This document shows, piece after piece, positions 17,281 to 59,949 of a stretch of 64,000 nucleotides of DNA. The DNA comes from Eledone cirrhosa. Taxonomy: Eukaryota. Position 1 is the stretch's first letter. Every line of letters begins with the position of its first letter. The stretch is taken from positions 16,120,001-16,184,000 of the forward strand of contig OZ024745.1 of NCBI GenBank assembly GCA_964016885.1, given 5' to 3'. A model generated the notes under the pieces. The model was not told the origin of the DNA. It made no database searches and was given only the letters and a program-made list of their open reading frames with translations. Made by a program: the position numbers and the translations under genes.

Positions 17281-17398
17281 CAAAAGGGATATTTAATTTG
17301 TTGGCAATTCAACAAATATATATGGTTATAACTATCCAGGAAAAACTTGAAACACTAAGATCTTCCTGGATATGTCAATATTTATAAAACAAACTTTG

Positions 17399-17459
17399 TA
17401 TTTTATCTGATGAGAACGTACCAAAGTTTTGGTACTCTTGAAATATATATAACAGAATA
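17399..17459 (+). ncRNA. Minimal type-I hammerhead motif in a ~225-bp module (17279-17503) between (TA)n tracts
   Basis: TATTTTAT CTGATGA ..GTACCAA AGTT TTGGTAC.. GAA ATATATAT A ACAGAATA; 7 of 8 positions pair in stem I. Confidence 0.75.
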
Positions 17460-17670
17460 AATATGGTTTTATATATATAGTTTCCATTTATTTAATATCA
17501 TTGATATATATATATATATATATATTGTTATACTTTGGGAGGGTCATGTTGCCAATAAGAAACACACGCACCAGTTGCTTTCACTTCAATTTATTATAAT
17601 AAATTTATAAATTTAGGAATTTATAAATTTCCGGTTGGTTCCACAACCAGATGATTGTTTATATATTGTC

Positions 17671-30600: not shown

Positions 30601-33600
30601 GTGATGTGGTTGTGAGTTTAAAGGTGATGTGGTTGTGAGGTGAAAGGTGATGTGGTTGTGAGTTGAAAGGTGGTGTGGTTGTGAGTTGAAAAGTGGTGTG
30701 GTTGTGAGGTGAAAGGTGATGTGGTTGTGAGTTGAAAGGTGGTGTGGTTGTGAGTTGAAAGGTGATGTGGTTGTGAGTTGAAAGGTGATGTGGTTGTGAG
30801 TTTAAAGGTGGTGTGGTTGTGAGTTGAAAGGTGATGTGGTTGTTAGTTGAAAGGTGATGTGGTTGTAAGTTGAAAGGTGGTGTGGTTGTGTGTTGAAAGG
30901 TGATGTGGTTGTGAGTTTAAAGGTGGTGTGGTTGTGAGTTGAAAGGTGGTGTGGTTGTGAGTTGAAAGGTGTTGTGGTTGTGAGTTGAAAGGTGGTGTGG
31001 TTGTGAGTTGAAAGGTGGTGTGGTTGTGATTTGAAAGGTGGTGTGGTTGTGAGTTGAAAGGTGGTGTGGTTGTGAGTGTTGAAAGGTGGTGTGGTTGTGA
31101 GTTGAAAGGTGGTGTGGTTGTGAGTTGAAAGGTGGTGTGGTTGTGAGTGTTGAAAGGTGGTGTGGTTGTGAGTTGAAAGGTGGTGTGGTTGTGAGTTGAA
31201 AGGTGGTGTGGTTGTGAGTGTTGAAAGGTGGTGTGTTTGTGAGTTGAAAGGTGGTGTGGTTGTGAGTGTTGAAAGGTGGTGTGGTTGTGAGTTGAAAGGT
31301 GGTGTGGTTGTGAGTTGAAAGGTGGTGTGGTTGTGAGTTGAAAGGTGGTGTGGTTGTGAGTTGAAAGGTGGTGTGGTTGTAAGTGTTGAAAGGTGGTGTG
31401 GTTGTGAGTTGAAAGGTGATGTGGTTGTGAGTTGAAAGGTGAAGTGGTTGTGAGTGTTGAAAGGTGGTGTGGTTGTGAGTTGAAAGGGGGTGTGGTTGTG
31501 AGTTGAAAGGTGATGTGGTTGTGAGTTGAAAGGTGGTGTGGTTGTGAGTGTTGAAAGGTGGTAGGGTTGTGAGTTGAAAGGTGGTGTGGTTGTGAGTGTT
31601 GACAGATGGTGTGGTTGTGAGTTGAAAGGTGATGTGGTTGTGAATTGAAAGGTGATGTGGTTGTGAGTTGAAAGGTGGTGTGGTTTTGAGTTGAAAGGTG
31701 GTGTGGTTGTGAGTTGAAAGGTGGTGTGGTTGTGAGTTGAAAGGTGATGTGGTTGTGAGTTGAAAGGTGGTGTGGTTGTGAGTTGAAAGGTGGTGTGGTT
31801 GTGAGTTGAAAGGTGTTGTGGTTGTGAGTTGAAAGGTGGTGTGGTTGTGTGTTGAAAGGTGATGTGGTTGTGAGTTGAAAGGTGGTGTGGTTGTGAGTTG
31901 AAAGGTGGTGTGGTTGTGAGTTGAAGGTGGTGTGGTTGTGAGTTGAAAGGTGATGTGGTTGTGAGTTGAAAGGTGGTGTGGTTGTGAGTTGAAAGGTGGT
32001 GTGGTTGTGAGTTGAAAGGTGTTGTGGTTGTGAGTTGAAAGGTGGTGTGGTTGTGAGTTGAAAGGTGTTGTGGTTGTGAGTTGAAAGGTGGTGTGGTTGT
32101 GAGTTGAAAGGTGATGTGGTTGTGAGTTGAAAGGTGATGTGGTTGTGAGTTGAAAGGTGGTGTGGTTGTAAGTTGAAAGGTGATGTGGTTGTGAGTGTTG
32201 AAAGGTGGTGTGGTTGTGTGTTGAAAGGTGGTGTGCTTGTGAGTTGAAAAGTGGTGTGGTTGTGAGGTGAAAGGTGGTGTGGTTGTGAGTTGAAAGGTGG
32301 TGTGGTTGTGAGTTGTAAGGTGATGTGGTTGTGAGTTGAAAGGTGGTGTGGTTGTGAGTTTAAAGGTGATGTGGTTGTGAGTTTAAAGGTGATGTGGTTG
32401 TGAGTTGAAAGGTGGTGTGGTTGTGAGTTGAAAGGTGATGTGGTTGTGAGTTGAAAGGTGATGTGGTTGTGAGTTGAAAGGTGATGTGGTTGTGAGTTGA
32501 AAGGTCGTGTCGTTGTGAGTTGAAAGGTGGTGTGGTTGTGAGTTGAAAGGTGATGTTGTTGTGAGTTGAAAGGTGGTGTGGTTGTGAGTTGAAAGGTGGT
32601 GTGGTTGTGAGTTGAAAGGTGGTGCGGTTGTGAGTTGAAAGGTGGTGTGGTTGTGAGTTGAAAGGTGATGTGGTTGCGAGTTTAAAGGTGATGTGGTTGT
32701 GAGTTGAAAGGTGATGTGGTTGTGAGTTGAAAGGTGGTGTCGTTGTGAGTTGAAAGGTTGTGTGGTTGTGAGTTGAAAGGTGATGTGGTTGTGAGTTGAA
32801 AGGTGGTGTGGTTGTGAGTTGAAATGTGGTGTGGTTGTCAGTTGAAAGGTGATGTGGTTGTGAGTTGAAAGGTGGTGTGGTTGTGAGTTGAAAGGTGGTG
32901 TGGTTGTGAGTTGAAAGGTGGTGTGGTTGTGAGTTGAAAGGTGATGTGGTTGTGAGTTGAAAGGTGGTGTGGTTGTGAGTTGAAAGGTGGTGTGGTTGTG
33001 AGTTGAAAGGTGATGTGGTTGTGAGTTGAAAGGTGATGTGGTTGTCAGTTGAAAGGTGATGTGGTTGTGAGTTGAAAGGTGGTGTGGTTGTGAGTTGAAA
33101 GGTGGTGTGGTTGTGAGTTGAAAGGTGATGTGGTTGTGAGTTGAAAGGTGGTGTGGTTGTCAGTTGAAAGGTGATGTGGTTGTGAGTTGAAAGGTGGTGT
33201 GGTTGTGAGTTGAAAGGTGGTGTGGTTGTGAGTTGAAAGGTGATGTGGTTGTGAGTTGAAAGGTGGTGTGGTTGTGAGTTGAAAGGTTGTGTGGTTGTGA
33301 GTTGAAAGGTGATGTGGTTGTGAGTTGAAAGGTGGTGTGGTTGTGAGGTGAAAGGTGATGTGGTTGTGAGTGTTGAAAGGTGGTGTGGTTGTGAGGTGAA
33401 AGGTGGTGTGGTTGTGAGTTGAAAGGTGGTGTGGTTGTGAGTGTTGAAAGGTGGTGTGGTTGTGAGTTGAAAGGTGGTGTGGTTGTGAGTGTTGAAAGGT
33501 GGTGTGGTTGTGTGTTGAAAGGTGGTGTGGTTGTGAGTTGAAAGGTGGTGTGGTTGTGAGTTGAAAGGTGATGTGGTTGTGTGTTGAAAGGTGGTGTGGT

Positions 33601-36600
33601 TGTGAGTTGATAGGTGGTGTGGTTGTGAGTTGAAAGGTGATGTGGTTGTGAGTTGAAAGGTGATGTGGTTGTGAGTTGAAAGGTGGTGTGCTTGTGAGTT
33701 GAAAAGTGGTGTGGTTGTGATTCGAAAGGTGGTGTGGTTGTGAGTTGAAAGGTCATGTGGTTGTGAGTTGAAAGGTGATGTGGTTGTGAGTTGAAAGGTG
33801 ATGTGGTTGTGTGTTGAAAGGTGGTGTGGTTGTGAGTTGATAGGTGGTGTGGTTGTGAGTTGAAAGGTGATGTGGTTGTGAGTTGAAAGGTGATGTGGTT
33901 GTGTGTTGAAAGGTGGTGTGGTTGTGAGTTGATAGGTGGTGTGGTTGTGAGTTGAAAGGTGATGTGGTTGTGAGTTGAAAGGTGATGTGGTTGTGTGTTG
34001 AAAGGTGGTGTGCTTGTGAGTTGAAAAGTGGTGTGGTTGTGATTCGAAAGGTAGTGTGGTTGTGAGTTGAAAGGTGATGTGGTTGTGAGTTGAAAGGTGA
34101 TGTGGTTGTGAGTTGAAAGGTGATGTGGTTGTGTGTTGAAAGGTGGTGTGGTTGTGAGTTGATAGGTGGTGTGGTTGTGAGTTGAAAGGTGATGTGGTTG
34201 TGAGTTGAAAGGTGATGTGGTTGTGTGTTGAAAGGTGGTGTGGTTGTGAGTTGATAGGTGGTGTGGTTGTGAGTTGAAAGGTGGTGTGGTTGTGTGTTGA
34301 AAGGTGATGTGGTTGTGAGTTGAAAGGTGATGTGGTTGTGAGTTGAAAGGTGGTGTGGTTGTGAGTTGAAAGGTGATGTGGTTGTGAGTTGAAAGGTGGT
34401 GTGGTTGTGAGTTGAAAGGTGGTGTGGTTGTGAGTTTGAAGGTGATGTGGTTGTGAGTTGAAAGGTGATGTGGTTGTGAGTTGAAAGCTGGTGTGGTTGT
34501 GAGTTTAAAGGTGGTGTGGTTGTGTGTTGAAAGGTGATGTGGTTGTAAGTTGAAAGGTGATGTGGTTGTGAGTTGAAAGGTGGTGTGGTTGTGAGTTTAA
34601 AGGTGGTGTCGTTGTGAGTTGAAAAGTGGTGTGGTTGTGAGTTGAAAGGTGATGTGGTTGTGAGTTGAAAGGTGATGTGGTTGTGAGTTTAACGGTGATG
34701 TGGTTGTGAGGTGAAAGGTGGTGTGGTTGTCAGTTGAAAGGTGATGTGGTTGTGAGTTGAAAGGTGGTGTGGTTGTGAGTTGAAAGGTGGTGTGGTTGTG
34801 AGTTGAAAGGTGATGTGGTTGTGAGTTGAAAGGTGGTGTGGTTGTGAGTTGAAAGGTTGTGTGGTTGTGAGTTGAAAGGTGATGTGGTTGTGAGTTGAAA
34901 GGTGGTGTGGTTGTGAGGTGAAAGGTGATGTGGTTGTGAGTGTTGAAAGGTGGTGTGGTTGTGAGTTGAAAGGTGGTGTGGTTGTGAGTTGAAAGGTGGT
35001 GTGGTTGTGAGTGTTGAAAGGTGGTGTGGTTGTGAGTTGAAAGGTGGTGTGGTTGTGAGTGTTGAAAGGTGGTGTGGTTGTGTGTTGAAAGGTGGTGTGG
35101 TTGTGAGTTGAAAGGTGGTGTGGTTGTGAGTTGAAAGGTGATGTGGTTGTGTGTTGAAAGGTGGTGTGGTTGTGAGTTGATAGGTGGTGTGGTTGTGAGT
35201 TGAAAGGTGATGTGGTTGTGAGTTGAAAGGTGATGTGGTTGTGAGTTGAAAGGTGGTGTGCTTGTGAGTTGAAAAGTGGTGTGGTTGTGATTCGAAAGGT
35301 GGTGTGGTTGTGAGTTGAAAGGTGATGTGGTTGTGAGTTGAAAGGTGATGTGGTTGTGAGTTGAAAGGTGATGTGGTTGTGTGTTGAAAGGTGGTGTGGT
35401 TGTGAGTTGATAGGTGGTGTGGTTGTGAGTTGAAAGGTGATGTGGTTGTGAGTTGAAAGGTGATGTGGTTGTGTGTTGAAAGGTGGTGTGGTTGTGAGTT
35501 GATAGGTGGTGTGGTTGTGAGTTGAAAGGTGATGTGGTTGTGAGTTGAAAGGTGATGTGGTTGTGTGTTGAAAGGTGGTGTGCTTGTGAGTTGAAAAGTG
35601 GTGTGGTTGTGATTCGAAAGGTGGTGTGGTTGTGAGTTGAAAGGTGATGTGGTTGTGAGTTGAAAGGTGATGTGGTTGTGAGTTGAAAGGTGATGTGGTT
35701 GTGTGTTGAAAGGTGGTGTGGTTGTGAGTTGATAGGTGGTGTGGTTGTGAGTTGAAAGGTGATGTGGTTGTGAGTTGAAAGGTGATGTGGTTGTGTGTTG
35801 AAAGGTGGTGTGGTTGTGAGTTGATAGGTGGTGTGGTTGTGAGTTGAAAGGTGGTGTGGTTGTGTGTTGAAAGGTGATGTGGTTGTGAGTTGAAAGGTGA
35901 TGTGGTTGTGAGTTGAAAGGTGGTGTGGTTGTGAGTTGAAAGGTGATGTGGTTATGAGTTGAAAGGTGGTGTGGTTGTGAGTTGAAAGGTGGTGTGGTTG
36001 TGAGTTTAAAGGTGATGTGGTTGTGAGTTGAAAGGTGATGTGGTTGTGAGTTGAAAGGTGGTGTGGTTGTGAGTTTAAAGGTGGTGTGGTTGTGTGTTGA
36101 AAGGTGATGTGGTTGTGAGTTGAAAGGTGATGTGGTTGTGAGTTGAAAGGTGGTGTGGTTGTGAGTTTAAAGGTGGTGTCGTTGTGAGTTGAAAAGTGGT
36201 GTGGTTGTGAGGTGAAAGGTGATGTGGTTGTGAGTTGAAAGGTGATGTGGTTGTGAGTTTAAAGGTGATGTGGTTGTGAGGTGAAAGGTGATGTGGTTGT
36301 GAGTTGAAAGGTGGTGTGGTTGTGAGTTGAAAAGTGGTGTGGTTGTGAGGTTAAAAGGTGATGTGGTTGTGAGTTGAAAGGTGGTGTGGTTGTGAGTTGA
36401 AAGGTGATGTGGTTGTGAGTTGAAAGGTGATGTGGTTGTGAGTTTAAAGGTGGTGTGGTTGTGAGTTGAAAGGTGATGTGGTTGTTAGTTGAAAGGTGAT
36501 GTGGTTGTAAGTTGAAAGGTGGTGTGGTTGTGTGTTGAAAGGTGATGTGGTTGTGAGTTTAAAGGTGGTGTGGTTGTGAGTTGAAAGGTGGTGTGGTTGT

Positions 36601-39600
36601 GAGTTGAAAGGTGTTGTGGTTGTGAGTTGAAAGGTGGTGTGGTTGTGAGTTGAAAGGTGGTGTGGTTGTGATTTGAAAGGTGGTGTGGTTGTGAGTTGAA
36701 AGGTGGTGTGGTTGTGAGTGTTGAAAGGTGGTGTGGTTGTGAGTTGAAAGGTGGTGTGGTTGTGAGTTGAAAGGTGGTGTGGTTGTGAGTGTTGAAAGGT
36801 GGTGTGGTTGTGAGTTGAAAGGTGGTGTGGTTGTGAGTTGAAAGGTGGTGTGGTTGTGAGTGTTGAAAGGTGGTGTGTTTGTGAGTTGAAAGGTGGTGTG
36901 GTTGTGAGTGTTGAAAGGTGGTGTGGTTGTGAGTTGAAAGGTGGTGTGGTTGTGAGTTGAAAGGTGGTGTGGTTGTGAGTTGAAAGGTGGTGTGGTTGTG
37001 AGTTGAAAGGTGGTGTGGTTGTAAGTGTTGAAAGGTGGTGTGGTTGTGAGTTGAAAGGTGATGTGGTTGTGAGATGAAAGGTGAAGTGGTTGTGAGTGTT
37101 GAAAGGTGGTGTGGTTGTGAGTTGAAAGGGGGTGTGGTTGTGAGTTGAAAGGTGATGTGGTTGTGAGTTGAAAGGTGGTGTGGTTGTGAGTGTTGAAAGG
37201 TGGTAGGGTTGTGAGTTGAAAGGTGGTGTGGTTGTGAGTGTTGACAGATGGTGTGGTTGTGAGTTGAAAGGTGATGTGGTTGTGAATTGAAAGGTGATGT
37301 GGTTGTGAGTTGAAAGGTGGTGTGGTTTTGAGTTGAAAGGTGGTGTGGTTGTGAGTTGAAAGGTGGTGTGGTTGTGAGTTGAAAGGTGATGTGGTTGTGA
37401 GTTGAAAGGTGGTGTGGTTGTGAGTTGAAAGGTGGTGTGGTTGTGAGTTGAAAGGTGTTGTGGTTGTGAGTTGAAAGGTGGTGTGGTTGTGTGTTGAAAG
37501 GTGATGTGGTTGTGAGTTGAAAGGTGGTGTGGTTGTGAGTTGAAAGGTGGTGTGGTTGTGAGTTGAAGGTGGTGTGGTTGTGAGTTGAAAGGTGATGTGG
37601 TTGTGAGTTGAAAGGTGGTGTGGTTGTGAGTTGAAAGGTGGTGTGGTTGTGAGTTGAAAGGTGTTGTGGTTGTGAGTTGAAAGGTGGTGTGGTTGTGAGT
37701 TGAAAGGTGTTGTGGTTGTGAGTTGAAAGGTGGTGTGGTTGTGAGTTGAAAGGTGATGTGGTTGTGAGTTGAAAGGTGATGTGGTTGTGAGTTGAAAGGT
37801 GGTGTGGTTGTAAGTTGAAAGGTGATGTGGTTGTGAGTGTTGAAAGGTGGTGTGGTTGTGTGTTGAAAGGTGGTGTGCTTGTGAGTTGAAAAGTGGTGTG
37901 GTTGTGAGGTGAAAGGTGGTGTGGTTGTGAGTTGAAAGGTGGTGTGGTTGTGAGTTGTAAGGTGATGTGGTTGTGAGTTGAAAGGTGGTGTGGTTGTGAG
38001 TTGAAAGGTGGTGTGGTTGTGAGTTGAAAGGTGATGTGGTTGTGAGTGTTGAAAGGTGATGTGGTTGTGAGTTGAAAGGTGGTGTGGTTGTGAGTGTTGA
38101 AAGGTGGTGTGGTTGTGAGTTGAAAGGTGGTGTGGTTGTGAGTGTTGAAAGGTGGTGTGGTTGTGAGTTGAAAGGTGATGTGGTTGTGAGTTGAAAGGTG
38201 ATGTGGTTGTGAGTGTTGAAAGGTGGTGTGGTTGTGAGTTGAAAGGTGGTGTGGTTGTGAGTGTTGAAAGGTGATGTGGTTGTGAGTTGAAAGGTGGTGT
38301 GGTTGTGAGTGTTGAAAGGTGGTGTGGTTGTGAGTTGAAAGGTGGTGTGGTTGTGAGTGTTGAAAGGTGGTGTGGTTGTGAGTTGAAAGGGGGTGTGGTT
38401 GTGAGTTGAAAGGTGATGTGGTTGTGAGTTGAAAGGTGGTGTAGTTGTGAGTGTTGACAGATGGTGGGGTTGTGAGTTGAAAGGTGATGTGGTTGTGAGT
38501 GTTGAAAGGTGGTGGGGTTGTGAGTTGAAAGGTGGTGTGGTTGTGAGTGTTGACAGATGGTGTGGTTGTGAGTTGAAAGGTGATGTGGTTGTGAGTTGAA
38601 AGGTGATGTGGTTGTGAATTGAAAGGTGGTGTGGTTGTGAGTTGAAAGGTGGTGTCGTTGTGAGTTGAAAGGTGGTGTGGTTGTGAGTTGAAAGGTGGTG
38701 TGGTTGTGAGTTTAAAGGGGATGTGGTTGTGACTTTAAAGGTGATGTGGTTGTGAGTTGAAAGGTGGTGTGGTTGTGAGTTGAAAGGTGATGTGGTTGTG
38801 AGTGTTGACAGATGGTGGGGTTGTGAGTTGAAAGGTGATGTGGTTGTGAGTGTTGAACGGTGGTGTGGTTGTGAGTTTAAAGGTGATGTGGTTGTGAGTT
38901 TAAAGGTTATGTGGTTGTGAGTTGAAAGGTGATGTGGTTGTGAGTTGATAGGTGGTGTGGTTGTGAGTTTAAAGGTGATGTGGTTGTGAGTTTAAAGGTT
39001 ATGTGGTTGTGAGTTGAAAGGTGATGTGGTTGTGAGTTGAAAGGTGGTGTGGTTGTGTGTTGAAAGGTGATGTGGTTGTGAGTTGAAAGGTGGTGTGGTT
39101 GTGAGTTGAAAGGTGGTGTGGTTGTGAGTTGAAAGGTGGTGTGGTTGTGAGTTGAAAGTTGATGTGGTTGTGAGTTGAAAGGTGGTGTGGTTGTGAGTTG
39201 AAAGGTGGTGTGGTTGTGAGTTGAAAGATGGTGTGGTTGTGAGTTGAAAGGTGGTGTGGTTGTGAGTTGAAAGGTGGTGTGGTTGTGAGTTGAAAGGTGG
39301 TGTGGTTGTGAGTTGAATGATGGTGTGGTTGTGAGTTGAAAGGTGGTGTGGTTGTGAGTTGAAAGGTGGTGTGGTTGTGAGTTGAAAGGTGGTGTGGTTG
39401 TGAGTTGAAAGGTGGTGTGGTCGTGAGTTGAAAGGTGATGTGGTTGTGAGTTGAAAGGTGGTGTGGTTGTGAGTTGAAAGGTGGTGTCGTTGTGAGTTGA
39501 AAGGTGGTGTGGTTGTGAGTTGAAAGGTGGTGTGGTTGTGAGTTTAAAGGGGATGTGGTTGTGACTTTAAAGGTGATGTGGTTGTGAGTTGAAAGGTGGT

Positions 39601-42600
39601 GTGGTTGTGAGTTGAAAGGTGATGTGGTTGTGAGTGTTGACAGATGGTGGGGTTGTGAGTTGAAAGGTGATGTGGTTGTGAGTGTTGAAAGGTGGTGTGG
39701 TTGTGAGTTTAAAGGTGATGTGGTTGTGAGTTTAAAGGTTATGTGGTTGTGAGTTGAAAGGTGATGTGGTTGTGAGTTGATAGGTGGTGTGGTTGTGAGT
39801 TTAAAGGTGATGTGGTTGTGAGTTTAAAGGTTATGTGGTTGTGAGTTGAAAGGTGATGTGGTTGTGAGTTGAAAGGTGGTGTGGTTGTGTGTTGAAAGGT
39901 GATGTGGTTGTGAGTTGAAAGGTGGTGTGGTTGTGAGTTGAAAGGTGGTGTGGTTGTGAGTTGAAAGGTGGTGTGGTTGTGAGTTGAAAGTTGATGTGGT
40001 TGTGAGTTGAAAGGTGGTGTGGTTGTGAGTTGAAAGGTGGTGTGGTTGTGAGTTGAAAGATGGTGTGGTTGTGAGTTGAAAGGTGGTGTGGTTGTGAGTT
40101 GAAAGGTGGTGTGGGCGTGAGTTGAAAGGTGATGTGGTTGTGAGTTGAAGAGTGATGTGGTTGTGAGTTGAAAGGTGATGTGGTTGTGAGTTGAAAGGTG
40201 GTGTGGTTGTGAGTTGAAAGGTGATGTGGTTGTGAGTTGAAAGGTGATGTGGTTGTGAGTTGAAAGGTGGTGTGGTTGTGAGTTGAAAGGTGGTGTGGTT
40301 GTGAGTTGAAAGGTGATGTGGTTGTGAGTTGAAAGGTGGTGTGGTTGTGAGTTGAAAGGTGGTGTGGTTGTGAGTTTAAAGGTGGTGTGGTTGTTATTTT
40401 AAAGGTGGTGTGGTTGTGAATTGAAAGGTGTTGTGGTTGTGAGCTGAAAGGTGTTGTGGTTGTGAGTTTAAAGGTGATGTGGTTGTGAGTTGAAAGGTGA
40501 TGTGGTTGTGAGTGTTGAAAGGTGGTGGGGTTGTGAGTTGAAAGGTGGTGTGGTTGTGAGTGTTGACAGATGGTGTGGTTGTGAGTTGAAAGGTGATGTG
40601 GTTGTGAATTGAAAGTTGGTGTGGTTGTGAGTTGAAAGGTGGTGTCGTTGTGAGTTGAAAGGTGGTGTGGTTGTGAGTTGAAAGTGGTGTGGTTGTGAGT
40701 TGAAAGGTGGTGTGGTTGTGAGTTGAAAGGTGATGTGGTTGTGAGTTGAAAGGTGGTGTGGTTGTGAGTTGAAAGGTGGTGTGGCTGTGAGTTGAAAGGT
40801 GGTGTGGTTGTGAGTTGAAAGGTGATGTGGTTGTGAGTTGAAAGGTGGTGTGGTTGTGAGTTGAAAGGTGATGTGGTTGTGAGTTGAAAGGTGGTGTGGT
40901 TGTGAGTTGAAAGGTGGTGTGGTTGTGAGTTGAAAGGTGGTGTGGTTGTGAGTTTAAAGGGGATGTGGTTGTGACTTTAAAGGTGATGTGGTTCTGAGTT
41001 TAAAGGTTGTGTGGTTGTGAGTTGAAAGGTGATGTGGTTGTGAGTTGAAAGGTGGTGTGGTTGTGAGTTGAAAGGTTGTGTGGTTGTGAGTGTTGACAGA
41101 TGGTGGGGTTGTGAGTTGAAAGGTGATGTGGTTGTGAGTGTTGAAAGGTGGTTTGGTTGTGAGTTTAAAGGTGATGTGGTTGTGAGTTTAAAGGTGGTGT
41201 GGTTGGGAGTTGAAAAGCGGTGTGGTTGTGAGTTGAAAGGTGATGTGGTTGTGAGTTGAAGAGTGATGTGGTTGTGAGTTGAAAGGTGATGTGGTTGTGA
41301 GTTGAAAGGTGGTGTGGTTGTGAGTTGAAAGGTGGTGTGGTTGTGAGTTTAAAGGTGATGTGGTTGTGAGTTTAAAGGTGATGTGGTTGTGAGTTGAAAG
41401 GTGATGTGGTTGTGAGTTGAAAGGTGGTGTGGTTGTGAGTTGAAAGGTGATGTGGTTGTGAGTTGAAAGGTGGTGTGGTTGTGAGTTGAAAGGTGGTGTG
41501 GTTGTGAGTTTAAAGGTGATGTGGTTGTGAGTTTAAAGGTGATGTGGTTGTGAGTTGAAAGGTGGTGTGGTTGTGAGTTGAAAGGTGGTGTGGTTGTGAG
41601 TTGAAAGGTGATGTGGTTGTGAGTTGAAAGGTGATGTGGTTGTGAGTTGAAAGGTGATGTGGTTGTGAGTTGAAAGGTGGTGTGGTTGTGAGTTGAAAGG
41701 TGATGTGGTTGTGAGTTGAAAGGTGGTGTAGTTGTGAGTTGAAAGGTGGTGTTGTTGTGAGTTGAAAGGTGGTGTGGTTGTGAGTTGAAAGGTGGTGTGG
41801 TTGTGAGTTGAAAGGTGGTGTGGTTGTGAATTGAAAGGTGATGTGGTTGTGAGTTTAAAGGTGGTGTGGTTGTGATTTTAAAGGTGGTGTGGTTGTGAAT
41901 TGAAAGGTGTTGTGGTTGTGAGCTGAAAGGTGGTGTGGTTGTGAGTTGAAAGGTGGTGTGGTTGTGAGTTGAAAGGTGATGTGGTTGTGAGTTTAAAGGT
42001 GGTGTGGTTGTGAGTTTAAAGGTGATGTGGTTGTGAGTTGAAAGGTGATGTGGTTGTGAGTTGAAAGGTGTTGTGGTTGTGAGTTGAACGGTGTTGTGGT
42101 TGTGAGTTGAAAGGTGGTGGGGTTGTGAGTTTAAAGGTGGTGTGGTTGTGAGTTGAAAGGGGGTGTGGTTGTGAGTTGAAAGCTGTTGTGGTTGTGAGTG
42201 TTGAAAGGTGGTGTGGTTGTGTGTTGAAAGGTGGTGTGGTTGTGAGTGTTGAAAGGTGATGTGGTTGTGAGTTGAAAGGTGATGTGGTTGTGAGTTGAAA
42301 GGTGATGTGGTTGTGAGTTGAAAGGTGATGTGGTTGTGAGTTTAAATGTGGTGTGGTTGTGAGTTTAAAGGTGATGTGGTTGTGAGTTTAAAGGTGATGT
42401 GGTTGTGAGTTGAAAGGTGGTGTGGTTGTGAGTTGAAAGGTGGTGTGGTTGTGAGTTGAAAGGTGATGTGGTTGTGAGTTGAAAGGTGGTGTAGTTGTGA
42501 GTTGAAAGGTGGTGTGGTTGTGAGTTGAAAGGTGATGTGGTTGTGAGTTGAAAGGTGGTGTGGTTGTGAGTTGAAAGGTGATGTGGTTGTGAGTTGAAAG

Positions 42601-42800
42601 GTGGTGTAGTTGTGAGTTGAAAGGTGGTGTTGTTGTGAGTTGAAAGGTGGTGTGGTTGTGAGTTGAAGGTGGTGTTATTGTGAGTTGAAAGGTGATGTGG
42701 TTGTGAGTTGAAAGGTGGTGTGGTTGTGAGTTGAAAGGTGATGTGGTTGTGAGTTGAAAGGGGGTGTGGTTGTGAGTTGAAAGGTGGTGTGGTTGTGAGA
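24657..42800. repeat. 18-kb satellite array, 23-bp unit GTGGTTGTGAGTTGAAAGGTG(G/A)T, roughly 790 copies
   Basis: Directly visible and uninterrupted; near absence of C on the + strand; recurring 25-bp variant units (GAGTGTTGAAA). Confidence 0.98.
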
Positions 42801-45185: not shown

Positions 45186-45192
<7 letters not shown>

Positions 45193-45384
45193 GACGTAAA
45201 ATAAGAAAATTATAAAAATTTACTTACTTACTAAAAGTAAATTTTTATAATTTTCTTATTTTACGTCTTTCATATAATTGTTCTGCATCCCCTTGCATTG
45301 AACCACAAAGTTACTAAGACAAAACCTATATATTTGCTAGCATAGGTATACATCTGTATATATATGTTGGTAGATATACTAATT

Positions 45385-45388
<4 letters not shown>
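45186..45388 (+). mobile_element. Short hairpin-plus-tail copy of the family at 55381 and 59136, between (TA)n tracts
   Basis: ATGAAAGACGTAAAATAAGAAAATTATAAAAATTTAC / GTAAATTTTTATAATTTTCTTATTTTACGTCTTTCAT inverted pair, then tail homologous to 59705-59820. Confidence 0.85.
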
Positions 45389-45443
<55 letters not shown>

Positions 45444-47029
45444 CACACACACTTACACGGCCTTACACACACACACATATATATATATACATATATATGT
45501 ATATATACATATATGTAGGTTTGCATACTCAGGAGTATATATGTATATATATATATACATACGTCTGAGTATGCAAACCTACATAAATACTTCGCCAAGT
45601 GCTTTAGCCTGCGTACATTAGTGTCAGTTGTTTAACTAACACATATTATACCAAATACATATATATATATATATCCGCGTGTAGTTGATGGAAGAGAGAA
45701 AAGAGCACTCAATACTGAAATAGAGTTGAAATATTCATTTATTATCGCTAAATAGTGAGTCTTGTTATACCAGAGTTTCACCTGCACTCACATAGTTGTC
45801 AGGCATGTCTTCTCTGATGACCCTGTGTGTGCAGAGGGTCATCAGAGTAACAAGACTCACTGTTTAGCCCTAAGACTGGTTATAATTAATTGGCAGTGGT
45901 ACTTAGATATCATTGATGTTAATAGTGATGTATATGAAGGCATGTGCTATAGCTTTATACACCTGAGAACCTCATCAAAGATCCCTTTTTATTTCTTTAT
46001 GAAAGTAAAAAGTCTTTCTTTTGCAAAACGAAAAAGTATTTTTTTTATAGCGAGGTTCACATGTGTTTATTGTATATAAAACATATAGAATATCCTTTCA
46101 TATATACCCCCATTATGCTTAACACTATCTTAATGCCACTGCAAATACACACACACACACACACACACACACAGCTGACTAAATACGTGCATGTGTTTTT
46201 TTTTGTTGTCATTTTTGTTCTGTTCCTTCCTCTCTTCACTCTCTATCTTCCAATTTCATCTATTATGTCTCATTCTATCTTCCGATGAATAACTAGCGTC
46301 CGAAACGTTAAGGCTCTTTTCCGCCTTTTTCAAGTGTTAAACTAATATATTTCTTCATTGTTATTTGTCGTTTGCTTTATTATTTCTGTTTACTTTTTGC
46401 ACCCCCGCCCATACACACCTGCACCTACCCCCACCCCACACATATATATATTACGTGCTTTGTATGTATATTATATAGAGTGTGTATACAGCTGATGTGT
46501 CAATATATAAGTAATGTGATTATATGCTTCAGTTGTATATATATAGACAGTGTGATGTGTATCGATTTTCTTTCATCCTTTTTAACTGAATAGTGATCAT
46601 TAGTGGTGATAATAATCTCCGCTAATTAAGGCAACAATTAATCGTCTATCAATCATATAGTTTGTCATGTGACAATATGCCATAGTGTGAGGTGGTGGTG
46701 GTGTATGTGACTGAATACACTAGTCAAACTCCCTACTAATTGTTGGAGCTGGGTACATCAGAGAGTTGCTTGTGACTGTCCATCAAATATATAGAGCGTG
46801 TACTGAAGAATTACTCATTATCTGCTTTACGGCATAGGACAAATCTTTTCCTGAGTCCTTTTCTGGTGATGCGGCTGGACTGCCGATCACTATATTTGAT
46901 TTGCTAAGCTGTCTAAACGTATTGTTACTACTCTGGAGTACTTTTCCCCATCCGAGTGCTAAAGCTACAGACCGAATTTGCATTCGTTAGCTTGGCCGCG
47001 AAATAAAGCTTTGTTAATGCTGTACTAAA

Positions 47030-47115
<86 letters not shown>

Positions 47116-47246
47116 GTGAGGTTTTTTTTACAAAATGAAAAATAACCGAGGTGTCCTACACGAGTGAAAGCATAAAGAAAAAGAGATGAAATCGAAAATG
47201 CAACTGGAGTCTTATTTAAAAAAAATATATATATATTTATTTGGTT

Positions 47247-47284
47247 CCTTTACCGGTTTCCCAGTTCTTCTGCTTTTCAAAAGG
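47247..47284 (-). ncRNA. 38-nt minimal hammerhead motif, U3-A8 core variant
   Basis: CCTT TTGAAAA GCAG AAGAA CTGG GAA ACCGGT A AAGG; perfect stem I; G.G mismatch at the base of stem II in this copy. Confidence 0.75.
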
Positions 47285-48159
47285 TGAGTTGAGATGGAGG
47301 GTCTGTGGTTTTTCTCACATCTGGTTGGTCTCTGAATGTTACTTATTTTATATGGAAAAAGTGGCTCGAAATGCCAGGTTTTTCGAGAAGTAATTTGATT
47401 GGTTTGTCAATAATTATAATAAATTTCGCGCCAGTTCGCGTTACAATAGTTCTTCAAATAAGAGGGGGGAGGGGTTTTCACAGGTTGTTTTTTCATATAT
47501 GAGTGTTTGAATTTTTTTACTTGAAAAAAGGGGGCTCACGAAGGCTTTTTTTTGGTTGGTTATAAATGAAATTATGGCTGTCACGTGAACAAGTTTTCAT
47601 TAAATATTCGTGCCCTTATTTGGAAATCCATTCTGTAGCCTTTTTAGAGAATTTTATGATAAGTGAAAGATAATGGTCAAGAGAAAGGGATGGAAGAATT
47701 GTTCTGGTTCAGTGAATATGGTTAGTTCGCTGGGGTGTCAGAATTCAGATTTTCTATTGAATAAAGAAAGTAAAGATATGTATGTTTATTTGTGTGCTTG
47801 TGTGTGTGCGTGCGTGTGTGTGTGTGTGTGTTGTGTGTGTGTGTGTTTGAATTTCTTTACTTTAAAAAAAGGTGGCTCACGAAGGCTTTTTTTTAATAAA
47901 GGTGATTTGATTGGTTATAAATGAAATTTGGCTGTCACGTGAACAAGTTTTCATTACATTTTTGCGCCCTTATTTGGAAATCTATTCTGTAGCCTTTATA
48001 GAGAATGTTATGACAATGAAAAGATAGTGGTCAAGAGAAATGGGTTTGGGAGAATTGTTCTGATTCAGTGAATATGGTTAGTTCGCTGTGGTGTCAGAGT
48101 TCAGATTTTCTATTGAAGTGAAGATATGTATGTTTATTTGTGTGCTTGTGTGTGTGTGT

Positions 48160-48215
<56 letters not shown>

Positions 48216-48482
48216 TGGAAGATGATTCTATTAGTAGAAATGGGGGAGGGAGTTGTGTGTGTGTGTATATGGGTGTCATGTATGTGTGTGCGAGTATGTT
48301 AAGATGGAGAGAATATATATTTTGTGTGTGTGTATATATGTGTGTAGGAAAGTGGTTCTATTAGTAGAAATGGGGGTGGGAGTTGTGGGTGTTGTTATGT
48401 GTGTGTATGGGTGTTATGTGTGTGGGAGTATGGTTAGCATGTTAAGATGAAGAGGATATATATATATATATATATATATTGT

Positions 48483-48514
<32 letters not shown>

Positions 48515-48705
48515 AGGAAAATGATTCCTTTAGTAGGAATATTTTTGAATGAACATATTTTCCTTACTTATTCGTATTTGTTCTGTTGTATTGTCAGTGC
48601 AAACGTATGTTAAGGTTTATTTAGTTCGGGTTTTTATTTTCTAAAGTAGGTGTTATGTGTGTGTGTGTGTGTGTATGTCATATTATGGTGTTGACACAAT
48701 GTATA

Positions 48706-50350
48706 TTAAACCATATTTAATGTTGGTGTATATTTTTGAATAAACATATTTTCCTTATTTATTCGTATTTGTTCTGTTGTATTGTTAGCGCAAAGGTAAA
48801 ATGGGAAGACTTGGAATTTGGGTGTCTTATTACTTGCGCAAATGTCTAGATGTGCACTTAGTGGTATCTGTCTCGTGGTTGGATCTCGTAATTGTTGGCG
48901 ATGAACTGTCATTCTGTTTCTGAGTGTGAGTTTAGTTTGTCCTATATAATCTTCATTGCATCCTTTACATTTAATGGCATAAATTAGGTTTTTTGATGAG
49001 CAAGTGAAGTGATTTTTTACAGTAAAATTTTGTCCTGATTTAAATGTATACGTGTTGCCTTCAATGAGGTGAGTGCAGGTTCCACAATTAGAGCGACCAC
49101 ATTTTTTGGTACTTGGTTGTGGGTTTGTGGTAGGTAATTTAGCATTGGTGAGTAATGTTTTCAGTGATTTTGGTTGTCTTTTTGCTTTTGATTATTTTGT
49201 GTGTTTCAAGGGCTTTTTTCATTCTTGGGTTTTGTTTTAGTAGTGGGATGTTATTGTGTATAGTGTTGTAAGCTTCCGCATTTCTTGGGTTGTGTGTTGA
49301 GATATATGATAGAATATTGGACGTACCTTGAATTTGTTTCTGTTTCCGTAATTCATCAATGCCTATTGCTTTAGCCCTCTCTATTCCATTATTTATTAGT
49401 AATAGTGGGTACTCTCTCTTGAGTAGAATTTCCTTTAATTCTTGAAGTCTTTTATTTAGCGCTTCATAATTGGAGACAATTGTGCAAATTCTTCTTGCTA
49501 GGTTAAAAGGAATGTTCGTCTTCGTGTGCTTTGGATGGTTGGAGGTGAATAGCAGATATTGTTTGGAATCTGTTGGTTTGTAGTGTATGTCAGTTTCGAT
49601 ATTTGTGTCTTTTTTTAAGATTAAGATGTCCAGAAATGGGAGTTGATCTTGGCTGTATTCCACTGTGAATTGGATGTGGTTATTGATGCCGTTTATTAAG
49701 TTTTTGAAATCCTTCAGTTGGTCGAGTGTGTGGGACCAAAGAATGAGGCAATCATCCAAGTAGCGTTTCCAATTCTCTGATAAATATTTGTGGAAGTTCA
49801 ATCCGTATTTTGATTTGGACTGTTCATATATCTGGACTTCTAAGTATGCCATGACTAAGTTGGCATAAGTTGGAGCGGCTTTTGTACCCATCGCAGTCCC
49901 CGATATTTGCTTGTAAGTATTGCCATCGAAATCAAAAAAGTTGTTCTGTAGGATGAATTTTAATCCCTCGGTGATGAAGCTTTTTTCTATTCTGTCAGGT
50001 ATCTCATTGGGATATTTCTCTAGCCAGAATCCTATTGCTTCTAGTCCGTATTGGTGTGTGATCCTTGTGTAGAGATTCACTACATCGAAAGACACAATAA
50101 TAGTGTCGTTGTTGACATGTTTGGGGAGGTGGTTTAAGAGGTCCAGATCGTCTCTTACAAAGCTTGGTATGTGTTTCACAATTGGTTTCAGTAGTATGTC
50201 TATAAAGTTGCTCAATCTGTGTGTTTCACATTGTGGGCCCGCTACAATTGGTCTTAATTTAAAGTCTGTGGGGTATTGTGTGCTCACGCAGGCTGAGGTG
50301 GATTGTTTACAGGCATCGTTGATTATTTTACACTTGTGGATCTTCGGAAG
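48706..50350 (-). pseudogene. PLE reverse transcriptase + GIY-YIG endonuclease, single frameshift at ~49180
   Basis: LPKIHK...LRPIVAG...SFDVVNLYT...GTAMGTKAAPTYANL...RYLDD...LPFLD...YKPTD...HPKH. Removing one T from the run at 49179-49183 restores KSKRQPKSLK and joins NLIYAIKCKGCNEDYIGQT...PTLN. Confidence 0.92.
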
Positions 50351-50364
50351 TATATATATATATA

Positions 50365-52587: not shown

Positions 52588-52795
52588 ATGTGAGAAAAAC
52601 CACAGACCCTCCATCTCAACTCTACTTTTGAAAAGCAGAAGAACTGCGAAACCGGTAAAAGGACCAAATAAATATATATATATTTTTTTAAATAAGACGC
52701 CAGTTGCATTTTCAATTTCATCTTTTTTTCTTTATACTTTCACTTGTGTAGGACACCTCGGTTATTTTTCATTTTGTAAAAAAACCTCATTTTCT

Positions 52796-52798
<3 letters not shown>
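52588..52798 (+). mobile_element. Solo/inverted pLTR fragment of the 47109 PLE family, between (TA)n tracts
   Basis: Reverse complement of 47109-47320 with multiple substitutions; same 3' endpoint. Confidence 0.85.
52625..52661 (+). ncRNA. Minimal hammerhead motif, U3-A8 core variant
   Basis: CTT TTGAAAA GCAG AAGAA CTGC GAA ACCGGT A AAAG; perfect stem II, weakened stem I. Confidence 0.75.
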
Positions 52799-52860
<62 letters not shown>

Positions 52861-52864
<4 letters not shown>

Positions 52865-55326: not shown

Positions 55327-55386
<60 letters not shown>

Positions 55387-55552
55387 AATTTATATCTAGT
55401 AACATTTATATACACACAGATGCATATCAATGCTAGCAAATATATAGGTTTTGTCTTATTAACATTGTGTTTCAATGCATGGGGTTGCAGAACAATAATA
55501 TGAGAGACGTAAAATAAGAAAATTATAAAATTAACTTACTTACTAAAAAATC

Positions 55553-55634
55553 ACTTCCAACTAATTAGTTTCTGGAATGGAGTAAATATATTTTCCGAAG
55601 AATATATAGAAAAGCATTTCGTCATCAGGAAAGT
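55553..55634 (-). ncRNA. Hammerhead motif, tandem unit 1
   Basis: ACTTTC CTGATGA C GAAATG...CATTCC A GAA ACTAATTAGT T GGAAGT. Confidence 0.75.
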
Positions 55635-56077
55635 CTTTTTCCGTGTAAGTCTCCAGGCATAGCGAGGACTCTGGAAACTTATTAAAAAAATAATTCAGTG
55701 GAAAGGAAATAGCAAAGCGTGGACTGGATTCCTAGCCATTGAGAAAATCACTGCCTCTACGTCTGTGGCAAATTCAAAAAGAATCAATCACGTGACATCG
55801 AGGTCAATCAGTGGAAAGCGAGTGGTTAATAAGACAGCGGCCAGCCTACTACCATAGTAGCAGTCATGGCCAAATATTGCTCGACAAATGAATTGGAGAT
55901 AATTATAAGGGATTTTATATCTAGTAACATTTATATACACACAGATGCATATCAATGCTAGCAAATATATAGGTTTTGTCTTATTAACATTGTGGTTCAA
56001 TGCATGGGGTTGCAGAACAATAATATGAGAGACGTAAAATAAGAAAATTATAAAATTAACTTACTTACTAAAAAATC

Positions 56078-56160
56078 ACTTCCAACTAATTAGTTTCTGG
56101 AATGGAGTAAATATATTTTCCGAAGAAACATATAAAAAATCATTCCGTCATCAGGAAAGT
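56078..56160 (-). ncRNA. Hammerhead motif, tandem unit 2
   Basis: ACTTTC CTGATGA C GGAATG...CATTCC A GAA ACTAATTAGT T GGAAGT; 6-bp stem I, 6-bp stem II, 10-nt palindromic stem III. Confidence 0.82.
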
Positions 56161-56308
56161 CTTTTTCCGTGTAAGTCTCCAGGCATAGCGAGGACTCTGG
56201 AAACTTATTAAAAAAATAATTCAGTGGAAAGGAAATAGCGAAGCGTGGACTGGATTCCTAGCCATTGAGAAAATCACTGCCTCTACGTCTGTGGCAAATT
56301 CAAAAAAG

Positions 56309-56391
56309 ACATTCCTGATGACGGAATGATTTTCTATATGTTTCTTCGGATAATATATTTACTCCATTCCAGAAACTAATTAGTTGGAAGT
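56309..56391 (+). ncRNA. Hammerhead motif in the inverted arm
   Basis: ACATTC CTGATGA C GGAATG...CATTCC A GAA ACTAATTAGT T GGAAGT. Confidence 0.78.
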
Positions 56392-56436
56392 GATTTTTTA
56401 GTAAGTAAGTTAATTTTATAATTTTCTTATTTTACG

Positions 56437-56510
<74 letters not shown>

Positions 56511-58683: not shown

Positions 58684-59135
58684 CCACACACATTGTTATA
58701 CTTCGGGAGGTTCATTCTGCAAATATATAAAATAGAACGCACGAACGGGTTTTATTTCACTTGAATTAATTAGATAATTAGTTTATAAATAAATAAATAA
58801 TTTTTGGAAAGTTCTTTGTCGCATGCTATGAGGAAAGAACTTTGATAAATCAATTAATCAAATCATTTATCATTTTACTTATTAATTAACTAATTTTACA
58901 GTTAATTGGTAATAAAAATGAAGTGATGTCCTAACAGGTCTCATGATTTTATTGGAAGAATGACCCTGACAAATTACAACATATGTTCCAAGACAGATTT
59001 CACGAATGCAAATATATATATATACATATGTGTGTGTGTGTGTGTGTGTTTGTTGAGTGAGTTGGAAATTGGTCGCAGTATCGATATTAGCTTTCTCCGT
59101 TTATGTAATTATGTATATATATATATATATATATA

Positions 59136-59820
59136 TATGAAAGACGTAAAATAAGAAAATTTTAAAAATTAAAAATTAACTTACTTACTAAAATTTTCAC
59201 TCCAACTAATTAGTTTCTGTAATGGGATAAAGATAGTTACGTAATGTAACTGTCGAGAATTCATTACGTCATAAGGGAGTCTATTCTACCACTACAATAA
59301 GTTAGTAGTGGATTTGGCAGGTTTGCTCAACAAATAAATAATTTGGAGATAAATATAGAGAATTAGTATATTTACGAACATATGCGTACAGATGTACACT
59401 AATGCTAGCAAATACATAAGTTATGTCATAGTACCTAGGTGGTTCAATGCAGGAGGATGCAGAACAATTATATGAAAGACGTAAAATAAGGAAATTTTAA
59501 AAATTAAAAATTAACTTACTTACTAAAATTTTCACTCCAACTAATTAGTTTCGGTTATGGGATAAAGATAGTTACGTAATGTAACTGTCGAGAATTCATT
59601 ACGTAACTATCTTTATCCCATTACAGAAACTAATTAGTTGGAGTGAAAATTTTAGTAAGTAAGTTAATTTTTAATTTTTAAAATTTTCTTATTTTACGTC
59701 TTTAATATAATTGTTCTGCATCCTCCTGCATTGAACCACCTAGGTACTATGACATAACTTATGTATTTGCTAGCATTAGTGTACATCTGTACGCATATGT
59801 TCGTAAATATACTAATTCTC
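59136..59820. mobile_element. Related subfamily: 335-bp tandem units plus inverted arm with tail, in (TA)n
   Basis: TATGAAAGACG at 59136 and 59471 (period 335); 59597-59820 is an inverted copy of ~59358-59580. Confidence 0.85.
59199..59280 (-). ncRNA. Hammerhead motif with G5-to-U core substitution (probably inactive copy)
   Basis: ACTCC CTTATGA C GTAATG...CATTAC A GAA ACTAATTAGT T GGAGT; stems covary relative to the 56078 copy. Confidence 0.7.
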
Positions 59821-59949
59821 TCTCTATATATATGTATGGAGATGAAGATAAAATTCGTCAGAGTTTCTGAACAGTTTAATCTCAGTTGAAAATAAGTTAA
59901 CTGAGCTGCAGCTGGCCACTAAATATAAGGATTAATATTTATAATTCCT

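What the first reader, a model, noticed from the sequence alone, without database searches (positions are those of the whole stretch)
59136..59820. Sister subfamily with 335-bp unit shows compensatory changes in both ribozyme stems
Seen: relative to the 525-bp family, stem II changes GGAATG/CATTCC to GTAATG/CATTAC and stem I changes ACTTTC/GGAAGT to ACTCC/GGAGT. The GAA-ACTAATTAGT-T segment is invariant while the stem II loop is replaced. The inverted arm starts at the internal self-complementary CATTACGTAA.., consistent with a hairpin-guided template switch. Inference: structure-level selection on a non-coding element, and a family radiating in unit length. This copy has CTTATGA and is probably dead.
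Basis: partly seen in the sequence, partly recalled or inferred. Interest (0 to 1): 0.7.

Follow-up and report, generated by a model that had tools for sequence, protein, structure and literature searches.

The report
Deleted copy of Penelope-driven hammerhead repeat
This is a single, likely dead copy, missing 206 bases, of an abundant non-coding repeat whose predicted self-cutting RNA fold is kept by paired changes across subfamilies and which Penelope-type jumping-gene enzymes likely pasted into the genome; copies often begin just past the predicted cut site, a hint that the RNA cuts itself in living cells.

Summary
The sequence features are real, but there is no 335-bp subfamily. The unit is one copy of a 537-541-bp subfamily with a private 206-bp deletion (junction found once in the genome) and a private CTTATGA core (1 of 78; 66 of 78 have CTGATGA). 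The family has about 9,000 exact hammerhead cores and units of 521-571 bp (68 of 71). Stem II covariation is real: four pair types at one position, at least five independent double changes on a tree. The 'replaced loop' is a second covarying helix; the stem I change is a paired indel. Insertions carry the Penelope signature: (TA)n targets, partial tandems, an inverted arm and a one-sided tail (54 of 60). This favours priming from both target ends over one fold-back. 5' truncations pile up just past the predicted cut site (24 of 183 against 124 of 2456): indirect evidence of cleavage in vivo, or of RT stalling. It is a new member of a known kind (non-autonomous Penelope-like element / non-LTR retrozyme). 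The scan has noted the same layout in other families of this genome. No autonomous partner was found.

The parts
59110..59138 (.). (TA)n target microsatellite at the tail-less end (site A)
   Evidence: 2,580 exact site-A/(TA)n junctions in the genome
59138..59472 (-). Unit 1, 335 bp: a 537-541-bp subfamily unit with a 206-bp internal deletion; its 3' end is site A
   Evidence: 3 mismatches in 335 to the L004 unit
59199..59280 (-). Predicted type I minimal hammerhead, the only complete one at this locus: stem I ACTCC (59276-80) / GGAGT (59199-203); core CTTATGA (59269-75, G5 changed to U); stem II GTAATG (59262-67) / CATTAC (59219-24) with one extra base on each side; palindromic stem III; predicted cut between 59204 and 59203
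   Evidence: cleavage itself not tested
59232..59254 (-). Second helix inside 'loop II' (GACAGTTAC / GTAACTATC), homologous to the UUCG-capped helix of the 525-bp family
   Evidence: (5 of 5 pairs with both-side changes)
59285..59288 (.). Deletion junction (206 bp lost, 2-nt microhomology); the lost part held the invariant 15-nt block TGTCACGTGATTGAT, a possible promoter element (inference)
59473..59604 (-). 5'-truncated second unit; ends inside stem II before the catalytic box
59597..59604 (.). Inversion junction, 8-nt overlap CATTACGT derived from the self-complementary stem II region
59597..59829 (+). Inverted 5'-truncated arm: 3' half of the hammerhead, site A, then the ~120-nt tail ending at site B in (CT)/(TA) repeats
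   Evidence: 7 differences in 233 from the opposite arm
55380..56442 (-). Related insertion of the 525-bp subfamily (about 81% identical units): tail, full unit, partial unit, inverted arm (56303-56442, +); three CTGATGA cores
45188..45404 (.). Short fold-back insertion of a third subfamily: 49-nt site-A arm and 165-nt tail arm between (TA)n tracts

Best explanation
This locus is a likely dead, internally deleted copy of an abundant non-coding element whose 521-571-nt unit carries a predicted dimer-type hammerhead ribozyme and which is likely copied into (TA)n tracts by the reverse transcriptase-endonuclease of a Penelope-like (probably Neptune-type) element. Shown: unit structure, copy number, covarying stems, two fixed 3' ends, A+B polarity of inverted insertions, excess of 5' ends just past the predicted cut. 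Inferred mechanism: a multimeric (or circularised) transcript is bound by the Penelope protein, which cuts both strands of a (TA)n target. One strand primes at site A (about 60 nt 3' of the cut site), the other at site B (about 180 nt 3', just below a conserved hairpin). The two cDNAs stop at variable points, more often at a ribozyme-made RNA 5' end or in stem II, and are joined head to head through 0-8 nt of complementarity. Here both stopped in stem II and annealed through CATTACGT. Selection on the ribozyme acts through the few source copies that found subfamilies. This copy lost 206 bp and took a G5U core change.
For: Penelope layout as described in PMC8557442 (passages): partial tandems, adjacent inverted 5'-truncated copy, one-sided tail, (TA)n bias. 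Here 256 of 282 distinct arms end at site A (150) or B (106); 54 of 60 inverted partners of site-A arms end at B, 2 at A, 4 elsewhere. Hammerhead traits match the minimal HHRs of PMC4209133 (parts 1-2 of 4 read): short helix I, long helix II, extra base after A9, G10.1-C11.1, palindromic helix III. Covariation: 91% of cells paired against 79% shuffled, pair 19-69 AU10/UA9/GC3/CG1 with none broken; at least 5 double changes on an independent tree. No ORF over 64 codons in 5 subfamily units. The genome holds RT + CxxC + GIY-YIG ORFs, some of whose hammerheads also carry an extra base on both sides of stem II and lie about 170-190 nt from their 3' end. Two internal RT start sites define the tail of a Poseidon element in vitro (PMC11167929, parts 1-2 of 4).
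Against: No autonomous partner with matching ends among 70 of 150 GIY-YIG loci examined; only a weak 31-32-nt terminal likeness (E about 1e-4) in L228/L229. The tail is 116-125 nt against the 30-40 bp of the literature. No strand-specific A>G excess that would mark an edited RNA stage (25 A>G, 41 T>C singletons). Rfam gave no hit at gathering thresholds. In 41 of 54 A+B insertions one arm's sequence is contained in the other, so fold-back is not excluded case by case. Cleavage, transcription and circles were not tested.
Confidence: 0.82

Rival explanations
1. One reading: a distinct 335-bp subfamily, amplified in its own right, sister to the 525-bp family.
For: 335-bp spacing in the window; stems differ from the 525-bp family.
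Against: Junction found once in the genome; 1 of 71 distinct units is 335 bp; 99.1% identical to a 541-bp unit apart from one gap; not sister on the tree.
Confidence: 0.03
2. The inverted arm arises by fold-back of one cDNA on the stem II hairpin (single template switch), not from two primed cDNAs.
For: 8-nt overlap at a self-complementary site; stem II region is a secondary truncation hot spot (22 of 200 against 179 of 3233, p 0.003, post hoc); some junctions are near-perfect palindromes.
Against: The outer end of the inverted arm sits at the fixed site B in 54 of 60 cases, which a fold-back copy has no reason to do. In 13 of 54 neither arm contains the other. Overlaps are mostly 0-6 nt.
Confidence: 0.15
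3. For the truncation hot spot only: reverse transcriptase stalls at the 3' edge of the folded ribozyme, and the RNA need not be cleaved.
For: 32 of 43 ends in the c0-20 bin lie at c5-20, outside stem I; six sit at an AAAATTTT palindrome; 78-87% of passes read through the site; cleavage was dispensable in vitro for the anole element (PMC11167929).
Against: Sharp step at the cut site (43 of 270 at c0-20 against 13 of 228 at c-21 to -1, p 3e-4). Clean junctions exactly at the cut in L020, L037 and L170, two of them palindromes centred on it. The 525-bp family, which lacks the palindrome, shows ends there too.
Confidence: 0.4
4. A dispersed satellite spread at the DNA level, with the hammerhead as a passenger relic.
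For: Tandem units; no RNA-stage scar found.
Against: Fixed 3' ends, variable 5' ends, mostly 1-3 units per site on many contigs, and continued covariation across young subfamilies.
Confidence: 0.04

Closest known systems
EN+ Penelope-like elements (Neptune, Poseidon) and their pseudo-LTR minimal hammerheads (Cervera and de la Pena 2014, PMC4209133; Craig et al. 2021, PMC8557442; Frangieh et al. 2024, PMC11167929)
   Same: Partial tandems, inverted 5'-truncated arm, one-sided tail, (TA)n targets; minimal type I hammerhead with extra base after A9, G10.1-C11.1 and palindromic helix III; consensus families 'full of covariations' within one genome are already described.
   Different: No ORF. Tail 116-125 nt rather than 30-40. 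Helix II extended by an internal loop and a second helix, with an extra A before G12 (not in the text I read; figures and supplements not seen). Strict A+B polarity, whereas the in vitro study saw no start-site difference between strands.
Metazoan non-LTR retrozymes (Cervera and de la Pena 2020, PMC7229834, passages; Li, Clavereau and Pollet 2026, 10.64898/2026.07.22.740005, part 1 of 5 and passages)
   Same: Non-coding, low-GC, head-to-tail units each with a type I hammerhead; proposed non-autonomous derivatives of Penelope pseudo-LTRs.
   Different: Units 521-571 bp against about 220-390 bp in the passages read; short arrays; minimal-type rather than canonical hammerhead; circular RNA not shown here.
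Non-autonomous Chlamys elements such as MRC1 (PMC8557442, passage)
   Same: Non-coding PLE derivatives forming pseudo-LTRs and head-to-tail multicopy insertions.
   Different: Chlamys/Naiad lack canonical hammerheads, and their autonomous partners are known.

Membership tests
Minimal type I hammerhead of PLEs | Catalytic boxes CUGANGA and GAAA...UH | tested here: met
   Family: 66 of 78 CTGATGA, 8,993 exact cores; subfamilies with CTGACGA vary only at the free position 7. The window copy itself fails (CTTATGA).
Minimal type I hammerhead of PLEs | Helix I short, helix II long with G10.1-C11.1 and an extra base after A9, supported by covariation | tested here: met
   R-scape itself not available
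Minimal type I hammerhead of PLEs | Short palindromic helix III (dimer cleavage) | tested here: met
   ACTAATTAGT palindrome, invariant across 8 subfamily representatives; it was also the search anchor, so its invariance is partly by selection
Minimal type I hammerhead of PLEs | Self-cleavage | not testable with these tools
   only indirect: truncation step at the predicted cut
Penelope-like element (autonomous, EN+) | RT + GIY-YIG ORF | tested here: not met
   longest Met-started frame 27-64 codons in 5 units: non-autonomous
Penelope-mobilised insertion | Partial tandem, adjacent inverted 5'-truncated copy, tail at one end, AT-rich or microsatellite target | tested here: met
   tail longer than published
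Penelope-mobilised insertion | Sequence shared with the pseudo-LTR of an autonomous partner | tested here: inconclusive
   none clear in 70 of 150 GIY-YIG loci, out of 10,597 first-look candidates
Non-LTR retrozyme | Non-coding tandem units, each with a type I hammerhead | tested here: met
   71 distinct hammerhead-to-hammerhead units. The window locus has only one complete, mutated ribozyme.
Non-LTR retrozyme | Monomer of about 300 bp with canonical loop 1-loop 2 contacts | tested here: not met
   521-571 bp and minimal-type fold; tertiary contacts not modelled
Non-LTR retrozyme | Expressed linear and circular monomer RNAs | not testable with these tools

The most novel reading that the evidence does not exclude
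The copies record the chemistry of their own mobilisation. The Penelope-type hammerhead cleaves in vivo, and a measurable share of cDNAs run off the ribozyme-made 5' end, sometimes on both arms at once (L020, L170). The two target strands prime at two different fixed RNA sites about 120 nt apart. This would be genomic evidence for a step that the papers read here left open, in a family with thousands of young copies and a structurally distinct, extended-helix-II hammerhead.
Probability: 0.45. Interest if true: 0.6.

Novelty: new member of a known kind. Interest (0 to 1): 0.35.

Why it matters
As flagged (a 335-bp subfamily) it does not stand, and covarying hammerhead families in Penelope-rich genomes are known since 2014. 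What remains useful is the family as a natural experiment. [quoted passage not shown] A step in 5'-end frequency at the predicted cut, and a 54-of-56 preference for one tail-less and one tailed end, give precise predictions (cut position, two priming sites, strand assignment) that 5'-end RNA sequencing and an in vitro integration assay can test directly.

Tried and rejected
Rfam at gathering thresholds: no hit in the window. Autonomous partner: GIY-YIG scan, 70 of the 150 scored loci read, none shares the unit; an apparent neighbour (L252) carries a different hammerhead family. A shorter-stem-II pattern returned, among its first 100 listed of 1,112 matches, mostly the same family and its junction products, by eye. 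Sequencing runs: no RNA holder listed. Contigs of four runs of unknown type, one study, laid on the part of unit 1 around the deletion: no listed piece bridges the junction, and loose ends at 59286-59287 continue into the full-length unit. This fits a rare deletion but neither confirms nor excludes it in those samples; the inversion junction was not checked in reads. Lunse et al. on dimeric PLE hammerheads is not held and was seen only as a reference in PMC6765202. Literature searches for this family in cephalopods ('Neptune, Penelope, octopus'; 'octopus, hammerhead ribozyme') and for truncation at the cut site listed no paper on it by title or start of abstract; the library lacks most subscription papers and Repbase/Dfam, so absence from print is not shown. 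Stem I 'covariation' (three pairs) was rejected as an artefact of an ungapped alignment of a paired indel.

Full report
1. What is in the window. Between a (TA)n tract (59110-59138) and a (CT)/(TA) run at about 59820-59835 lies a 690-bp insertion. It has a 335-bp unit on the minus strand (59138-59472), a 5'-truncated second unit (59473-59604) and an inverted arm (59597-59829, 233 nt, 7 differences from the opposite arm). On the minus strand the first unit folds as a type I hammerhead: ACTCC - CTTATGA - C - GTAATG ... CATTAC - A - GAAA CTAATTAG TT - GGAGT. The 525-bp insertion at 55380-56442 has the same frame with ACTTTC/GGAAGT and GGAATG/CATTCC. The genome is a 3.0-Gb animal assembly. A cephalopod origin is my guess and that of earlier notes; it was not tested.

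2. There is no 335-bp subfamily. Searching the genome with the unit gave 173 matches (150 listed) from 40 scored candidates. Apart from the window itself, the listed matches break at query 187/188. Aligned to the closest full unit (L004, 541 bp), the window unit has 3 mismatches in 335 columns and one 206-bp gap with a 2-nt microhomology. The junction 24-mer occurs once in the genome with up to one mismatch. Of 71 distinct hammerhead-to-hammerhead units from 181 loci, 68 are 521-571 bp, one is the window's 335, and two are longer composites. The deleted part contains a 15-nt block invariant in 8 subfamily representatives (TGTCACGTGATTGAT); that it is a promoter element is inference. Among 78 distinct cores of the 541-type and its close relatives, 66 read CTGATGA and one reads CTTATGA, the window's. 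That G5 is essential is recalled knowledge.

3. The covariation is real, and wider than two families. The pattern CTGATGA-N45-70-GAAACTAATTAGTT has 8,993 exact matches against 0 for the reversed control. From 184 distinct hammerhead sequences in 38 clusters I aligned 23: the medoids of the 15 clusters with two or more members, the window copy, and 7 of 23 singletons chosen by eye. With the named structure, 91.1% of cells pair against 79.4% in shuffles and 32-45% in slid controls; RNAalifold recovers the same helices. In stem II, the second pair is AU 10, UA 9, GC 3, CG 1 with none broken, and the fifth is GC 12, UA 9. The 'replaced loop' is an internal loop plus a second helix, with both-side changes in 5 of 5 counted pairs. 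Because related rows inflate such counts, I built a tree from 30 units without their ribozyme. Read by eye, it needs at least three double changes at pair 2 (UA to CG, UA to AU, AU to GC) and at least two at pair 5. It also shows that the two window families are not sisters: the 541-type groups with the 554-571-bp units, and the 525-type is nested among AU-pair families. Stem I varies as ACTCC/GGAGT, ACTTC/GGAGT, ACTTCC/GGGAGT, ACTTCC/GGAAGT, ACTTTC/GGAAGT. These changes keep the structure, but by a paired indel and G.U steps. R-scape was not available.

4. Insertion anatomy points to Penelope. Counting c from the first base after the predicted cut, 282 distinct arms end at their 3' side at site A (c50-75; 150), at site B (c165-200; 106) or elsewhere (26); the sample is enriched for A by design. 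There are 2,580 exact site-A/(TA)n junctions. I took 90 of the first 100 listed, all on contig C1; I left out two duplicates already held and the last eight. Of these, 60 have an inverted partner arm, which ends at B in 54, at A in 2 and elsewhere in 4; junction overlaps are mostly 0-6 nt. This is the layout described for Penelope-like elements: partial tandem, adjacent inverted truncated copy, tail at one end, (TA)n bias (PMC8557442, passages). The tail has been traced to two internal RT start sites (PMC11167929, parts 1-2 of 4). Here the tail is 116-125 nt. The ribozyme matches the minimal hammerheads of PMC4209133 (parts 1-2 of 4), which already reports within-genome families full of compensatory changes and pairs on opposite strands 100-700 bp apart. 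Its figures and supplements, and the supplements of the 2026 preprint, were not seen and may show the extra A or the extended helix. The genome has many RT-CxxC-GIY-YIG ORFs; the Neptune label rests on the linker motif described. One of these families has a hammerhead with an extra base on both sides of stem II, about 170 nt from its 3' end. No partner sharing the unit was found in 70 of 150 loci.

5. How the inversion arose. The window's junction is an 8-nt overlap from the self-complementary stem II region, and that region is a secondary truncation hot spot (22 of 200 passes against 179 of 3233, post hoc). So the hairpin matters. But a single fold-back would not stop at site B, and in 13 of 54 A+B insertions each arm holds more than 20 nt that the other lacks. 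Two cDNAs primed from the two target strands and joined by microhomology is the better reading; this is inferred. In the other 41, fold-back cannot be excluded case by case.

6. A trace of cleavage. In loci L001-L061 I noticed 5' ends near the predicted cut, then tested this in the separately chosen set L092-L181. Arms not ending at A or B, arms touching a locus edge, and the first 35 nt of each arm were left out. There 24 of 183 passes end at c0-20 against 124 of 2456 in all other 21-nt bins (p 7e-5), 9 of 159 in the bin just upstream and 4 of 97 just downstream. For tail arms alone it is 12 of 60 against 1 of 48 upstream. The earlier loci, which include the discovery set, give 19 of 87 against 77 of 977. 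L037 begins exactly at the cut, and in L020 and L170 both arms do so within one base, forming a palindrome centred on it. Against this: 32 of the 43 ends lie at c5-20, six at a short palindrome, alignment ends are uncertain by a few bases, and most passes read through. RT stalling at the 3' edge of the folded ribozyme is a live rival, and two earlier notes on other genomes favoured an end at the ribozyme's edge rather than its cut (unchecked). I put cleavage run-off at somewhat better than even for part of the excess. I found no editing-type strand bias.

7. Comparison and verdict. It works like a non-autonomous Penelope-like element and fits the non-LTR retrozyme concept (PMC7229834, passages; 10.64898/2026.07.22.740005, part 1 and passages), with longer units and a minimal-type ribozyme. 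Earlier notes of this scan describe the same two-armed layout for 310-478-bp families in this genome; none matched this family by sequence or place. I had reached the Penelope reading before seeing them. Verdict: observation partly confirmed, interpretation partly supported, new member of a known kind, interest 0.35. The part worth following is the truncation step at the cut site and the A+B polarity.

Noticed in passing
window 47035-50351 (- strand), with a piece at 52588-52861: A 5'-truncated Penelope-like copy with pseudo-LTR duplications, 95% identical over 2.2 kb to the RT/GIY-YIG element in L212. The 354-bp repeat is its pseudo-LTR. A different family from the finding.
   Followed up: partly
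window 17331-17516: Another hammerhead-like motif (CTGATGA ... GAAA, palindromic ATATATAT helix III, 7-bp stem I in relatives), 91% to a segment beside a GIY-YIG ORF in L252.
   Followed up: partly
window 24658-42799: An 18-kb array of a 23-bp unit (784 copies, 92% matches) with extreme G/C strand skew of about 0.98.
   Followed up: no
L183:~2200, L184, L228, L229: A Penelope family whose hammerhead-like motif reads TTGATAA ... GAAACCGGTA, like the U3-A8 core variant described in PMC4209133.
   Followed up: partly
family units, about c118-172 after the cut site (window ~59358-59415 and the mirror in the right arm): A long hairpin predicted in all 8 subfamily representatives just 5' of site B, a candidate RT-binding or initiation structure; covariation not counted.
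   Followed up: partly
window 45795-45870: A short inverted repeat with CTGATGAC on both strands flanking a hairpin; no GAAA box seen.
   Followed up: no
L004 and L005: The same insertion appears twice 5.3 kb apart on contig C1 (segmental or assembly duplication).
   Followed up: no
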